DNA of 64,000 bases, from contig OZ024740.1 in NCBI GenBank assembly GCA_964016885.1, positions 315,704,001 to 315,768,000 of the forward strand, read 5' to 3'. A program made the translations under genes and the position numbers. Source of the DNA: Eledone cirrhosa. Its lineage: Eukaryota. Position 1 is the stretch's first letter. Each line of letters begins with the position of its first letter. The notes below the pieces were generated by a model. It ran no database searches and was not told the origin of the DNA. It saw nothing but the letters and a program-made list of their open reading frames with translations. Positions 37,201-42,959 of the stretch are shown here, piece by piece.

Positions 37201-39105
37201 CTTATTATCATTATCCTCATCACTATAATAATGATAGTAATAATTGTTTCTACTTACGGCACAAGACCAGAAATTACCCAGTGTATTACTGGTACTTTAT
37301 ATTATTGACCCCGTAAGGATGAAAGGCAAAGTCAAATCCCGCTGAGGTTAATTTTGCCTTTCATCCTTATGGGGTCGATAAAATAAAGTACCAGTCACAC
37401 ACTGGGGTTGATTTAATCGACTTTCCCCTCCCCCAAAATTGCAGGCCTTGTGCCTATATAAGAAACCATTATTACTAGTAGAAGGCGGTGGAATGGCAGT
37501 ATCGGTAGAGGGTCGGACGCCATGCTTTGACGCAAAGAGTTACGGCCTTTTCCATTATGAGTTCAAATCCCGCCGAGGTTAACTTTGCCTTTCATCCTTA
37601 CGGGGTCGATAAAATAAAGTACCAGTAATACACTGGGTAATTGCTGGCCTTGTGCCAAAAGTAGAAACAATTATTACTAGTAGTAGTAGTAGTAGTAGTA
37701 GTGTTGATGATGAGGAGGAGAAGGAGGGGCGAGGAGGTATATCAGGACCAAAAAGTCAAAAAGAGTGAAAAGCTTCAGAATTACAACATATAAAGAGGAG
37801 GAACTAAAAAGAAAAAGCAGTAGTCTAAATAGAGAGAGAAAAAGGGTTGAGGAGAAATAAATTGTAGAGAAGGATTACAGAAAAGAAACAATATAAACAT
37901 TTGGGTGTAAACAGGAACAGTTAATAATTATATACATTATATACATTATATACATCCACTTCAGTTTCTATACTCACCACCACTTTATTATAAGCTTATT
38001 ATTATAACTGTTGATAATTATATACCCACTCAATTCTGGACTGCCACTATTATTATTAGGAACAACCAGGGCGGTGGTCGGTAGTATTGGTAGATTGTTG
38101 GACACCATGATTTGCAACATAGAGTTCAGGCCCTTTTGCGTTCTGAGTTTAAATCCCGCCGAGGTTAGCTTTGTCTTTCATCCTTACTGCATCAATAAAT
38201 AAAGTACCAGTAACACACTGGGGAAATTCAATCAACTTTACCTTTCCCAAAATTGCTGGCCTTGTGCCTAATGTAGAAACAATTATTAAGAACAACCAGG
38301 AGCCTCTATGTGAGTGCTTTGACTTGCTAGATAGATCAGCCAAATCTCCCTCAAATTACAATTCAGTGTCTATGAAATAAAAACAAAAACACATAAGATA
38401 ATGTGCTCCTGGTTTCACTTCACATAGCAAAAGTGACTGAATGGATGATTTCAGCTGGAAAGTCTTGGATTTTTGGTTTCTCAATCAAGTTTGACCTTGC
38501 GCTAAACAACAACGACTGCTACTTTTAACAATCATTGGATTGGCAGTATCGGTAGAGGGTTGGACGCCATGCTTTGGCACATAGAGTTACGGCCCTTGCC
38601 ATTCTGAGTTCAAATCCCGCCGAGGTTAACTTTGCCTTTCATCCTTACGGGGTTGATAAAATAAAATACCAGTAATGCACTGAGTAATTGCTGGCCTTGT
38701 GCCAAACGTATAAACAATTATTAGAGTGGATTGGTGGACTTGGTAGAGCATCTGACAAATTGCTTTGCGGCATATGGTTACACTCCTTACATTCTGAGTT
38801 CAAATCCTGACGAGGTTAGCTTTGTCTTTTATCCTTATGAGGTAGATAAAATAAAGTACCAGTTACACACTGGAGTCAATTTTATTGACTTTCACCTCAA
38901 ACAAAATTGTTGGCCTCATGTCAAAATCAGAAGGTGAATTGGTAGTATCGGGAGAGGGTCGGACGCCATGCTTTCCAACATAGTTACGTCCCTTTACGGT
39001 CTGAGTTCAAATCTCGCCGAGGTTAGCTTTGCTTTTCATCCTTACGGTATCAATAAAATAAAGTACCAGTAAGGCACTGGATCAATTTAATCAACTTGCC
39101 CCTCC
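36675..39105. mobile_element. Cluster of about eight tRNA-SINE copies
   Basis: Same family motifs as 8189-8385; includes a head-to-head fusion near 37333. Confidence 0.85.
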
Positions 39106-39187
39106 CCATTTGTCATAACAAGCGTGTATATATGTGCATATATTTATATCTGTGTGTGTGTGATTGCTAGCAAGGAAAACGGATGTT

Positions 39188-39234
<47 letters not shown>

Positions 39235-39240
<6 letters not shown>

Positions 39241-40146
39241 GGAAAAAATGAAACAAAATTTCATTTCCCACTCTTAGTACAGCTGTTACTTAAATATAAA
39301 TATGTATACGTACATACATATATGTATACAGACGTACAGTAGTATGTATATATATATATATACATGCACACATATATATATATGTATGTATGGATTCACC
39401 GAACATTTATTATAATGCTCGGTGTGTTTGTAAACAAACATCCCGTATTAAGCCGTAGTGTCTAGCAACCATCGTTGCTCGTTTGTTCAACACTGACAAA
39501 GGAACGCTATACTAGTTTCAAGCTTATTAGCTATCGTCAGCAACGTATACCTTCATGCCAGATGATTGAACGTCTGAAAGTATATACTTTCCTTATGCAT
39601 ATTAACAGCTGAGTAGCCCAATTTGCATATCGAGTGGGTTAATCGGCCGGGTGCACCGAAAATGATAAACGGAAAAAATGAAACGAAATTTCATTTCCCA
39701 CTCTTAGTACAGCTGTTACTTAAATATAAGTATGTATACGGACATACATATATGTATACAGACGTACAGTAGTATGTATATATATATACATACACACATA
39801 TATGTATACAGACGTACAGTAGTATGTATATATATATACATACACACATATATGTATACAGACGTACAGTAGTATGTATATATATATACATACACACATA
39901 TATGTATACAGACGTACAGTAGTATGTATATATATATACATACACACATATATATATGTACGTATGGATTTGTCAGTGTTGAACAAACGAGCAACGATGG
40001 TTGCTAGACACTATGGCTTAATACGGGATGTTTGTTTACAAACACACCGAGCATTATAATAAATGTTAGGTGAATCCATACGTACATATATATATATACA
40101 TACTACTGTATATATATATATGTATGTACGTATACATACTTATATA
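39235..40146. mobile_element. Penelope/retrozyme-like unit: 430-bp direct-repeat period, then an inverted segment
   Basis: 39235-39360 repeats at 39665-39790; four 50-bp tandem units at 39751-39950; 39388-39500 is inverted at 39969-40082; hammerhead at 39505-39545; TA runs at both ends. Confidence 0.75.
39505..39545 (-). ncRNA. Minimal type I hammerhead ribozyme motif
   Basis: Minus strand: cgttg-CTGACGA-tagct-aata-agctt-GAAA-ctag-TA-tagcg; palindromic actagt stem III. Confidence 0.72.
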
Positions 40147-40256
40147 TATATATATAAGTAGAAGTGGTATTTAATTTGTTGGAAGTCCGACAAACAAATG
40201 TTTATAACTGATTTAGAGCACTCAACGATAAGGTATGATTTTCATGGGTATGTCTC

Positions 40257-40359
40257 TATTTATAAAACAAACTTTGTATTTTATCTGATGAAAGTGTACC
40301 AATGTTGTCTTGGTTACCCTTGAAATATATATAATAAAATAAATATGGTTTTATAAATA
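40257..40359 (+). ncRNA. Type I hammerhead ribozyme motif (core 40277-40341)
   Basis: tattttat-CTGATGA-aagtgtaccaa/tgttgtc/ttggttaccctt-GAAA-t-atat-a-TA-ataaaata; stem I is extended by tatttataaaac/gttttataaata. Confidence 0.82.
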
Positions 40360-40424
40360 TAGTTTCCATTTATTTAATATCATAATATAAAATGACATAT
40401 TTGAACATGATATATAATTAAAAA

Positions 40425-40465
<41 letters not shown>

Positions 40466-40577
40466 GGGCAGTGATTGGCAGTATCGGTAGAGCATCAGAA
40501 ACATGCTTTATGGCATATAGTTACGTCCTTTTACCATGTAAGTTCAAATTCTGCCAAGGTTAGCTTTGCTTTTCACC

Positions 40578-41065
40578 TGTAGCAAGCTACTTTCCTTTGG
40601 CTATTCGTGCGTGATTTGGCTAAGTCAGGCCAATCGTGAGCCGCGCACGGATATATATTTCCAACTTCCACCTAAACAGAGATTTTCCCACTTTCTTTCG
40701 ATATACTGTCTCTTGTAGTTTTGACCATTTTTTCTTTTGCCGTTCGACCACTAGCCAATATGTAACAATAACAACATTACTACGGCCTGGCCAGCACCTC
40801 AGCCAGTCGACCGTACTTTCTAAACTCTTAATTTGTTCATTCCTTTGTTTGGCATGCCAGCTCAACCTTTGTAGTCGGTTTGTAAATAAATTATGTAAAA
40901 ACATTGTAAAGTCTTGTGATGCTATTACCACAGCCATAGATAGCCTTTAAATGTGATATGGAAAGATCCTTTCCAGAGTTATCATCACAGCAGAAACAGA
41001 ACCTGGGACTTACAGCCAAATCAACTAACATTGCCATATAACAAAACCATACCTTTCTTGCTACA
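40578..41065. mobile_element. LTR-like segment inside an insertion that splits a SINE
   Basis: Starts tgtagcaag, has tatata and aataaa, and a 9-bp inverted end cttgctaca; SINE halves lie at 40465-40573 and 41231-41345; no clean target-site duplication. Confidence 0.45.
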
Positions 41066-42023
41066 ACAAAATCCATCATTATTATTATTATTATTATTAT
41101 TATTGTCGTTGATATTATTATTACATGGCATAATATTATTTTTCTGCTAAACTGGTGACTATTAAATGTCTGCTATATTGGTGACCTCTGTTGATACCAA
41201 TACTATTATCATTATTAATCCTCTGCTAAACATCCTTATGGTGTCAATAAAATAAAGTACCAGTAATGCACTGGATCAGTTTAATCAACTTTCGCCTCGC
41301 CTAAAAAGTTGTTAGCCTTGTACCTAAATCAGAAACTATTATTATTAGGGCAGTATCGGTAGAGTGTCGGGCACCATGCTTTGCAGCAGAATTACGACCC
41401 TTTAGAATCTGAGTTCAAATCCTGTTGAGGTTAGCTTAACCTTTCTTCCTTATGAGGTCGATATAATAAAGTACCAGTATGCACTGGAGTCAATCTGATT
41501 GACTTTCACCTCCAATAAAATTGTTGGCCTTGTGCCTAAATCAGAAACCATTATTACTGTCCCTATGATCATTACCACCAACAACACTAACACCACCACC
41601 TTTAGAAAACATTACTATTACCAGTGTGCCCATCTTCACATCACCAAGGACAATCATTCTCATTGCCAACATCTCTGACACCATCAACACCACTGTTAAT
41701 CAATAGAATCGCTAATGTTGCCTCTTAAAGAGTTAATTATACCACCGCTACATTTATATGTAGTCAGTAGAGCTTCGGATTTTATTATGGCTTCCATAGG
41801 GAAGGAATCTGTGGGTCGCGTGTTCAAATCCCTCTGCGAGTGAATATACTGCCTTTTTCCTACATTGTAAATGTGGTTGGTGTTAGGAAAGGCAGCCAGC
41901 TGTAGAAAACCTGCCAGATACTGTCCTATATGAACGAGACAGCCACCCGATCAATCTTGCTTCATGTAGGAAAATTCCCGTCTAATCCATGCTAGCATGG
42001 AGGATAGAAGTTAAACGATGATT

Positions 42024-42253
<230 letters not shown>

Positions 42254-42959
42254 TTTTCCTAGTAACAAAATACCAAACATGGTGTCTCCACCACTGTTAT
42301 TCTATAGGCATCATTAACCTAACTTAAAGAGTTTATTAGAAACTTTTCCACACAAGTTATATATATCTACTTGTTTCTAGTAACCAAACACCAAATATGA
42401 GCACCAGCACAAAGCTAGCTTATCCCCAACCAGCTTTAACTGATAACGCTAATTTAATTACCAGGAATGACACCAATTGAGGTCATTAACTCATCAACTG
42501 CACCAAACTATACTAAAATTACAGTAAGAGTATGCTATAGTTTGGGTGGTTAAACGGAAGATAAAGTTATATATATATTATATATACAGACATTTATTAG
42601 GAGGATTGAAGGTGGTGGTGTAACTAGGGAAAATAGCACTATGGCAAGCAGGGAAATAGCACCCCCTACCCAGGATCTGTATTTTTACCTATGGGTCTTA
42701 TAATTTATATAAAAGATTTAAAGTTCCAGCCACCATAGTGCTTCTTACTCATGATAATCAGAGATAGAACATACATCTGAAAAAGTTTCTTTTTTCACTC
42801 TCTGACGATAGCTCATCTGACTTTATTAGAAAATGCTCCTAGTCCATGTGGTGTCTATGGCACATGCCCTCCAATGGTCACTTTCCCCACTCACATATTC
42901 TATTTTACTTAATACTGCCTACATAAAAAGGAATACCCTTAATCCTGCATATATCCACA

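What the first reader, a model, noticed from the sequence alone, without database searches (positions are those of the whole stretch)
39235..40146. 430-bp repeat unit with a minimal hammerhead, then a partial second unit and an inversion: retrozyme/pLTR architecture
Seen: sequence starting ataaacggaaaaaatgaaac recurs exactly 430 bp later. The unit carries a minus-strand hammerhead (39505-39545). The second unit expands a 50-bp subrepeat four times, then flips at gtatggatt into an inverted copy of 39388-39500. Inference: this is what reverse transcription around a ~430-nt circular or multimeric RNA followed by a strand switch would leave.
Basis: partly seen in the sequence, partly recalled or inferred. 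Interest (0 to 1): 0.75.

Follow-up and report, generated by a model that had tools for sequence, protein, structure and literature searches.

The report
Penelope-pasted hammerhead retrozyme, U6-like promoter
This is one aged copy of a 428-base non-coding repeat found thousands of times in an animal genome; it carries a predicted self-cutting RNA and a likely built-in promoter, and its mirror-image insertions end at two fixed sites, likely the footprint of Penelope-type retrotransposon enzymes copying its RNA into DNA.

Summary
Observation confirmed. The 430-bp unit belongs to a dispersed non-coding family: 5,583 exact copies of its hammerhead motif, plus 10,464 of a sister family's. It occurs as monomers, head-to-tail multimers and inverted two-armed insertions in (TA)n. 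Outer ends fall at two fixed sites 59 nt apart; 36 of 37 two-armed insertions with both ends at those sites use one of each. That is the Penelope 'tail at one end' signature, so this is a non-LTR retrozyme likely mobilised by a Penelope-like element (partner not found).

The unit also carries a motif matching the upstream box of the host's U6, U6atac and RNase MRP genes, plus a TATA, though 4-6 nt closer than in those genes.

A circular template is unproven. No RNA run was available, 8 of 34 informative insertions mix subfamilies, and one tandem array is clearly a later DNA expansion. This copy has a single hammerhead, so it would not release a unit circle; its four 50-bp repeats look like later slippage. 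The inversion is better read as a second primed cDNA than as a strand switch. This scan has reported this kind of element, the two ends and the promoter before in this genome.

The parts
39192..39234 (.). (TA)n microsatellite, left part of the target site
   Evidence: TRF; most arms of other copies also abut (TA)n
39235..39664 (-). One full retrozyme unit (u1-u430); the left arm begins at fixed site u1
   Evidence: 10 substitutions from the family majority
39235..39293 (-). 59-nt tail between the two fixed end sites u1 and u60; contains a T6 run (39243-39248 on the minus strand)
   Evidence: 107 of 125 arms end at u1-14 or u52-67; T runs
39504..39546 (-). Minimal type I hammerhead: 6-bp stem I, 4-bp stem II closed by U.U, palindromic helix III; predicted cut 39510/39509; in this copy the stem I closing pair is G.U instead of the family's G-C
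39485..39571 (-). Extended helix that prolongs stem I, with two double-sided changes between the two families
   Evidence: RNAalifold on 24 sequences
39581..39586 (-). TATA-like box
   Evidence: 12 of 12 nt identical between the two families
39611..39629 (-). Motif matching the upstream box (-77 to -79) of host U6, U6atac and RNase MRP genes (PSE-like, contains an octamer)
39632..39703 (-). Predicted RNA helix (39632-39638 with 39697-39703) that spans the unit junction and encloses site u1
   Evidence: one pair is G-C in 14 and A-U in 12 of 28 sequences
39665..39970 (-). Partial second unit (u1-u160) of the left arm, inflated by the 50-bp expansion
39750..39949 (.). Four identical 50-bp copies, private to this locus; likely post-insertion slippage
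39969..40145 (+). Inverted arm (u264 to u60), ending at fixed site u60; it stops 9 nt short of the hammerhead cut site
40146..40157 (.). (AT)n, right part of the target microsatellite

Best explanation
This is one aged, two-armed insertion of an abundant ORF-less 428-nt hammerhead repeat (a non-LTR retrozyme) that was likely copied from RNA into a (TA)n site by a Penelope-like element's RT/GIY-YIG enzyme. Shown: the family, its tandem and inverted layout, the two fixed outer ends 59 nt apart and their one-of-each pairing. Inferred mechanism: an RNA longer than one unit (read-through multimer or circle) is bound at a structured tail; both target strands are nicked; one 3' end primes at u1 and the other at u60; the two cDNAs stop at scattered positions and are joined, giving back-to-back arms. 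Transcription likely starts from the U6-like box plus TATA just ahead of the hammerhead. The hammerhead is predicted to cut only as a dimer, so this copy, with one hammerhead, would not release a unit circle. Its 50-bp repeats likely arose afterwards by DNA slippage.
For: 5,583 exact motif copies, control 0. Among 89 insertion clusters in 81 non-redundant loci, 44 are two-armed; 37 of these have both ends at canonical sites, of which 36 pair u1 with u60 and 1 pairs u1 with u1 (binomial p 3e-10). The sister family shows the same in 7 of 7 such insertions among 17 loci. 107 of 125 arms end at the two sites, although longer TA tracts lie inside the unit. Pieces within an insertion differ by 3.3-3.5% against 5.5% between insertions. 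A>G exceeds T>C on the hammerhead strand, 66 vs 42 (p 0.012), and 11 vs 3 among variants shared within an insertion, as expected from RNA editing before copying. The genome holds RT+GIY-YIG elements (10,597 candidates); one Neptune-type family has a hammerhead with the same U.U closure and a palindromic loop. Tail at one end, inverted arms and microsatellite targets are published PLE traits (PMC8557442); two internal start sites and both-strand priming were shown in vitro (PMC11167929).
Against: No autonomous partner sharing the unit's sequence was found among the 50 GIY-YIG loci inspected (of 150 scored). Self-cleavage is untested, the usual G10.1-C11.1 pair is replaced by U.U, and Rfam finds nothing. 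0 of 125 arm 5' ends lie within u270-279, the cut site, so there is no sign of cut linear templates. The box-to-TATA spacing is 43 nt against 47-49 in host genes. A T6 run lies just inside site u1, so a normally terminated Pol III transcript would lack both u1 and the promoter and could not be the template. The published PLE tail is 30-40 nt, not 59.
Confidence: 0.8

Rival explanations
1. Rolling-circle version: the template is a monomeric ~430-nt circle made by hammerhead cleavage and ligation, and reverse transcription runs round it.
For: Arms pass seamlessly through the unit junction and the cut site; 25 of the 36 arms that start exactly at u1 exceed one unit. 26 of 34 informative insertions are uniform for strong subfamily markers, although the family is split about 25:23 at one of them. 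The unit folds well as a circle (z -6.5 for this copy, -8.4 for the family majority). Covarying helices include sequence upstream of the predicted start and across the junction. Circles are shown for coral, mussel and axolotl retrozymes (PMC7229834).
Against: 8 of 34 insertions (5 of 23 within one arm) mix markers, which one monomer circle cannot give; in L072 the switch lies between u73 and u210, not at the cut. In the 10-unit array L087 alternate inner units are identical to each other but differ from the opposite arm, so that array grew at DNA level. The opposite strand also folds well (z -6.7), so folding energy is weak evidence. A linear read-through multimer explains all the supporting points equally.
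Confidence: 0.4
2. The unit is the pLTR-plus-tail of an autonomous Penelope element, and these copies are simply its 5'-truncated insertions.
For: The architecture matches PLE partial tandems with an inverted arm (PMC8557442); Xenopus retrozymes are homologous to pLTRs (bioRxiv 10.64898/2026.07.22.740005).
Against: In the 81 loci the unit runs on into another unit, an inverted arm or unrelated flank; no shared ORF-bearing continuation was seen. None of 50 GIY-YIG loci uses this sequence as its end; the three that contain it (L125, L141, L144) hold separate insertions. The autonomous families inspected have CCAAT-type upstream regions and lack the U6-like box. Only a small share of the copies was sampled.
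Confidence: 0.1
3. A DNA-level mobile repeat or satellite (foldback, Helitron-like or recombination-driven) in which the hammerhead is incidental.
For: Long arrays (about 50 units at C1:51.77 Mb) and this locus's 50-bp repeats show DNA-level amplification.
Against: Fixed ends on one side with scattered ends on the other, strand-biased A>G, and changes between families confined to N7, loop II and a stem I wobble swap all fit an RNA intermediate.
Confidence: 0.05

Closest known systems
Metazoan non-LTR retrozymes (Cervera and de la Pena 2020, PMC7229834; Li, Clavereau and Pollet 2026, bioRxiv 10.64898/2026.07.22.740005)
   Same: ORF-less tandem unit of a few hundred bp, low GC, one type I hammerhead per unit, dimers to long multimers, thousands of copies, co-existing PLEs.
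   Different: The hammerhead is the minimal PLE type with U.U at 10.1/11.1. The parts of those papers that I read do not describe two-armed inverted insertions, two fixed ends or an internal promoter. Circles and cleavage are not shown here.
EN+ Penelope-like elements, Neptune/Naiad architecture (Craig et al. 2021, PMC8557442; Frangieh et al. 2024, PMC11167929; Cervera and de la Pena 2014, PMC4209133)
   Same: Partial tandem plus inverted truncated arm, tail at one end only, (TA)n target, minimal hammerhead with a palindromic helix III predicted to act as a dimer, two internal start sites.
   Different: No ORF; the tail is 59 nt rather than 30-40; a U6-like box replaces the CCAAT-type region seen in the autonomous families inspected here.
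Newt satellite 2 (Coats, Zhang and Epstein 1994; seen only as cited in PMC2220036, paper not held) and schistosome Sm-alpha (same citation)
   Same: Hammerhead tandem repeat with an internal small-RNA-type promoter.
   Different: Newt satellite 2 is described as Pol II snRNA-type and the schistosome repeat as Pol III. Here the box matches the host's Pol III genes U6, U6atac and MRP and not U2, with a TATA 4-6 nt closer than in those genes.

Membership tests
Non-LTR retrozyme | Short non-coding tandem unit (150-450 bp), low GC, dimers to multimers | tested here: met
   428/420-nt units, 1 to about 50 in tandem
Non-LTR retrozyme | Type I hammerhead in each unit | tested here: met
   core, stems and palindromic helix III present; changes between families avoid the core; not detected by Rfam
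Non-LTR retrozyme | No LTR, PBS, PPT or ORF; dispersed in many copies | tested here: met
   5,583 motif copies; no shared coding continuation in 81 loci; PBS/PPT judged from the architecture only, not scanned for
Non-LTR retrozyme | Self-cleavage of the transcript | not testable with these tools
   needs in vitro assay; U.U at 10.1/11.1 may lower activity
Non-LTR retrozyme | Accumulation as circular monomer RNA | not testable with these tools
   no RNA holder listed; DNA evidence is mixed
Non-LTR retrozyme ('active' by Li et al. 2026) | [quoted passage not shown] | tested here: not met
   this insertion has one hammerhead; other loci of the family meet it
Autonomous EN+ PLE | RT plus GIY-YIG ORF | tested here: not met
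   absent from the unit and not attached in 81 loci
PLE-mobilised sequence | Tail at one end, inverted truncated arm, microsatellite target | tested here: met
   36 of 37 and 7 of 7
PLE-mobilised sequence | Identified partner sharing pLTR or tail sequence | tested here: inconclusive
   none among 50 of 150 scored GIY-YIG loci; similar hammerhead build in a Neptune-type family
Type 3 (U6-like) Pol III promoter | Host upstream box (PSE-like) present | tested here: met
   score 13.8 (sister family 18.3) against 13.3 for held-out RNase MRP; 8 of 2000 shuffles reach it
Type 3 (U6-like) Pol III promoter | TATA at the host spacing from the box | tested here: not met
   43 nt in both families against 47-49 in U6, U6atac and MRP
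Type 3 (U6-like) Pol III promoter | Pol III-dependent start about 30 nt after the TATA | not testable with these tools
   needs 5' RACE and polymerase inhibitors

The most novel reading that the evidence does not exclude
A self-promoting RNA circle: the retrozyme carries the host's U6-type promoter inside its own hammerhead-processed RNA, so every inserted dimer can restart the cycle, and the strict u1/u60 pairing of its two arms records one Penelope enzyme dimer priming both ends of a DNA break on the same RNA. Thousands of such insertions would be an in vivo record of how Penelope inverted ends and tails arise and of which enzyme moves animal retrozymes.
Probability: 0.3. Interest if true: 0.7.

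Novelty: new variant of a known kind. Interest (0 to 1): 0.45.

Why it matters
The papers read propose, but do not show, that Penelope-like elements mobilise animal retrozymes, and they call the origin of PLE inverted ends and tails unresolved. This family gives a countable footprint (one-of-each use of two start sites in 36 of 37 insertions) and a small, defined RNA substrate for testing it in vitro. The U6-like box offers a testable answer to how such repeats are transcribed. The locus itself is an ordinary aged copy, and the scan has reported these features several times already.

Tried and rejected
Rfam found nothing at gathering score; at E<=10 it gave only hits far below their gathering scores, mostly TA-repeat matches to miRNA models, and no hammerhead family. 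The free fold of the 66-nt hammerhead region was not better than shuffles (z -0.77), and the explicit dimer energy calculation failed, so dimer cleavage rests on the 6-nt palindrome and PMC4209133. RNA evidence: no RNA holder listed; the four runs laid are contigs of unknown kind and say nothing on expression. Partner hunt: a recalled Pfam accession was not in the library. 50 GIY-YIG loci showed no shared pLTR; a tail-like match at L141:6216-6257 is the end of a separate insertion, and 19-nt matches inside ORFs had E about 1. No enrichment of arm 5' ends at the cut site (0 of 125) or at the predicted start (4 of 125 at u320-330, about 3 expected). Long arrays as rolling-circle products: rejected for L087. 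Coats et al. 1994 is not held. A search for PSE-TATA spacing tolerance gave nothing relevant, so that caveat rests on my own knowledge. Searches for a cephalopod description and for a retrozyme with a U6-type promoter listed none; subscription papers, Repbase and supplements were not seen.

Full report
OBSERVATION. The sequence at 39235 recurs at 39665, 430 bp on, with 94% identity over 148 nt. A (TA)n tract precedes it. A type I hammerhead layout lies on the minus strand at 39504-39546, with a predicted cut between 39510 and 39509; Rfam does not detect it. Four identical 50-bp copies fill 39750-39949. At 39969-39970 the sequence flips, with a 2-nt overlap, into an inverted arm that mirrors unit positions u264 to u60 and ends near 40145 in (AT)n.

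FAMILY. The window lies in a 3.0-Gb genome; that it is cephalopod-like is my recollection from its SINEs, not a result. The unit's unique part gave 1,632 candidates; 40 were scored, and the 41 matches are 95-100% identical. A 35-nt hammerhead motif occurs exactly 5,583 times, control 0. A sister family about 80% identical (465-540-nt units) has 10,464 exact motif matches. Related sequence is present in contigs of three other coded organisms. The majority unit is 428 nt, with a 420-nt subfamily. This copy's first unit differs from the majority at 10 positions, one of which turns the stem I closing pair into G.U. It has one hammerhead only.

ARCHITECTURE. I analysed loci L001-L100 and dropped 19 as overlapping, duplicate or inner parts of arrays, leaving 81 loci with 89 insertion clusters. 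L001-L030 were chosen by similarity to this copy; most of the rest by exact motif match in the first 52 Mb of C1. 44 clusters are two-armed and 45 one-armed. Of the 44, seven have one non-canonical end. Of the other 37, 36 pair an end at u1-14 with an end at u50-69, and one pairs u1 with u1 (p 3e-10 against 50%). Finer alignment puts 36 of 125 arm ends exactly at u1 and 33 exactly at u60, and 107 of 125 within u1-14 or u52-67. The longer TA tracts inside the unit are rarely used, so the sites are set by position rather than by homology to the target. The other ends of the arms are scattered; none of 125 falls at u270-279. The sister family shows the same pairing in 7 of 7 two-armed insertions with both ends canonical, among 17 loci. 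Craig et al. 2021 (PMC8557442; passages read) describe partial tandems, an inverted truncated copy, a 30-40-bp tail often at one end only, and microsatellite targets for PLEs. Frangieh et al. 2024 (PMC11167929; parts 1-2 of 4 read) show in vitro that a PLE protein cuts and extends both strands of AT-rich DNA and starts internally at two adjacent RNA sites that define the tail. The inversion here is therefore best read as a second cDNA primed from the other target strand (inference).

RNA INTERMEDIATE AND STRUCTURE. Pieces of one insertion differ by 3.3-3.5%, pieces of different insertions by 5.5%. Rare non-CpG changes on the hammerhead strand show A>G 66 against T>C 42 (p 0.012), and 11 against 3 among variants shared within an insertion. 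Between the two families the hammerhead changes at 4 of 43 positions: N7, loop II and a U.G to G.U swap in stem I. An extended helix prolongs stem I with a second double change. A 7-bp helix spans the unit junction and encloses site u1; one pair is G-C in 14 and A-U in 12 of 28 sequences. That may be a single inherited event, so it is weak evidence. Helix III is a 6-nt palindrome, the type that PMC4209133 (parts 1-2 of 4 read) predicts to work as a dimer with low activity; the G10.1-C11.1 pair that paper calls highly conserved is U.U here.

CIRCLE OR MULTIMER. Arms cross the junction and the cut site without a break, and 26 of 34 informative insertions are uniform for strong markers. But 8 of 34 are mixed, 5 of 23 within one arm, and the one clearly mappable switch (L072) is not at the cut site. 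In array L087 alternate inner units are identical while differing from the opposite arm by 6-11 substitutions, so that array expanded after insertion. The 50-bp expansion occurs only in this locus among L001-L100. No RNA run was available. I put the monomer circle at about 0.4 as the usual template; a read-through multimer explains the data as well.

PROMOTER. Upstream of three kinds of U6 gene and one U6atac gene, a shared box starts at -77 to -79 with a TATA at -30. These four were chosen because they have the box. Most other U6 and U6atac hits inspected lack it and look like retrocopies (8 of 9 U6atac hits lack it). The held-out RNase MRP gene has the box at -78; the U2 genes inspected do not. 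A matrix from the four scores the retrozyme 13.8, the sister family 18.3 and MRP 13.3. 8 of 2000 shuffles of the unit reach 13.8, none with a TATA in a downstream window that I chose after seeing the data; this site is the best in the 64-kb window. Against a plain U6-type promoter: the spacing is 43 nt rather than 47-49. A T6 run just inside u1 would also end a Pol III transcript before u1 and before the next promoter, so the mobilised RNA must read through it. The function is untested.

PARTNER. GIY-YIG search gave 10,597 candidates, 150 scored; 50 loci were inspected. Several are RT+GIY-YIG ORFs with the C-x-C-xx-C linker of Neptune-type elements (clade assigned from the motif description in PMC8557442, no tree built). 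They end in (TA)n, one family at two sites about 64 nt apart, and one has a hammerhead with the same U.U closure. None shares the unit's sequence, so the partner is unidentified.

COMPARISON. It works like, and by the testable features belongs to, the metazoan non-LTR retrozymes (PMC7229834: passages, section 14 and Discussion read; bioRxiv 10.64898/2026.07.22.740005: parts 1-3 of 5 read; its supplements are closed). Those texts propose PLE mobilisation; the parts I read do not describe two-armed insertions, fixed ends or an internal promoter. An snRNA-type promoter is cited for newt satellite 2 (seen only in PMC2220036). Searches listed no cephalopod description. Earlier notes of this scan report the same two ends 59 nt apart and the U6-like promoter in this genome; I had reached both before reading them, and they are not independent support.

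VERDICT. Real; an ordinary aged copy of a new variant of a known kind. PLE-mobilised retrozyme 0.8; monomer-circle template 0.4; functional internal promoter about 0.55. Interest 0.45.

Noticed in passing
window 37226-41570: At least eight copies of a different SINE-like repeat surround the finding; at 37226-37676 it forms its own inverted two-armed insertion (110-nt arms, 90% complementary) between short AAT- and TAG-type repeats.
   Followed up: no
L164 (G000:C10:48072680-48072786): A U6 copy is joined directly to the inverted end of another hammerhead-bearing repeat family and a (TA)n tract; several other U6 and U6atac copies also sit behind (TA)n, suggesting retrocopies made by the same machinery.
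   Followed up: no
L131, L132, L139, L140, L142, L144: Autonomous RT+GIY-YIG families carry hammerheads with the U3-A8 core variant in their long 3' regions, and one family ends at two sites about 64 nt apart.
   Followed up: partly
L136, L140, L142: A short second hammerhead family with a non-palindromic helix III loop; the L142 copy is two-armed with one long and one short end, the same asymmetry.
   Followed up: no
G000:C1:51772400-51793800 and C5:83324000-83335400: Long arrays of the unit (about 50 and about 27 units) with higher-order duplications, that is, incipient satellites.
   Followed up: partly
L153-L163 (G000:C19:31.78-31.84 Mb): Tandem U6 gene array with about 1.8-kb spacing; in some units a SINE-like insertion has displaced the upstream box just before the TATA.
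   Followed up: no
L172, L174, L195, L202: U2 genes have a TATA-like stretch near -30 but lack the box found in front of U6, U6atac and MRP, which suggests distinct Pol II and Pol III snRNA promoter boxes in this animal.
   Followed up: no
window 42794-42850: A 12-nt match to the hammerhead's 5' core without a stem I partner; judged chance.
   Followed up: yes
L018, L031, L036, L092, L208, L214: Retrozyme copies often lie beside fragments of other PLE-like RT frames; probably nested insertions into shared (TA)n targets.
   Followed up: no
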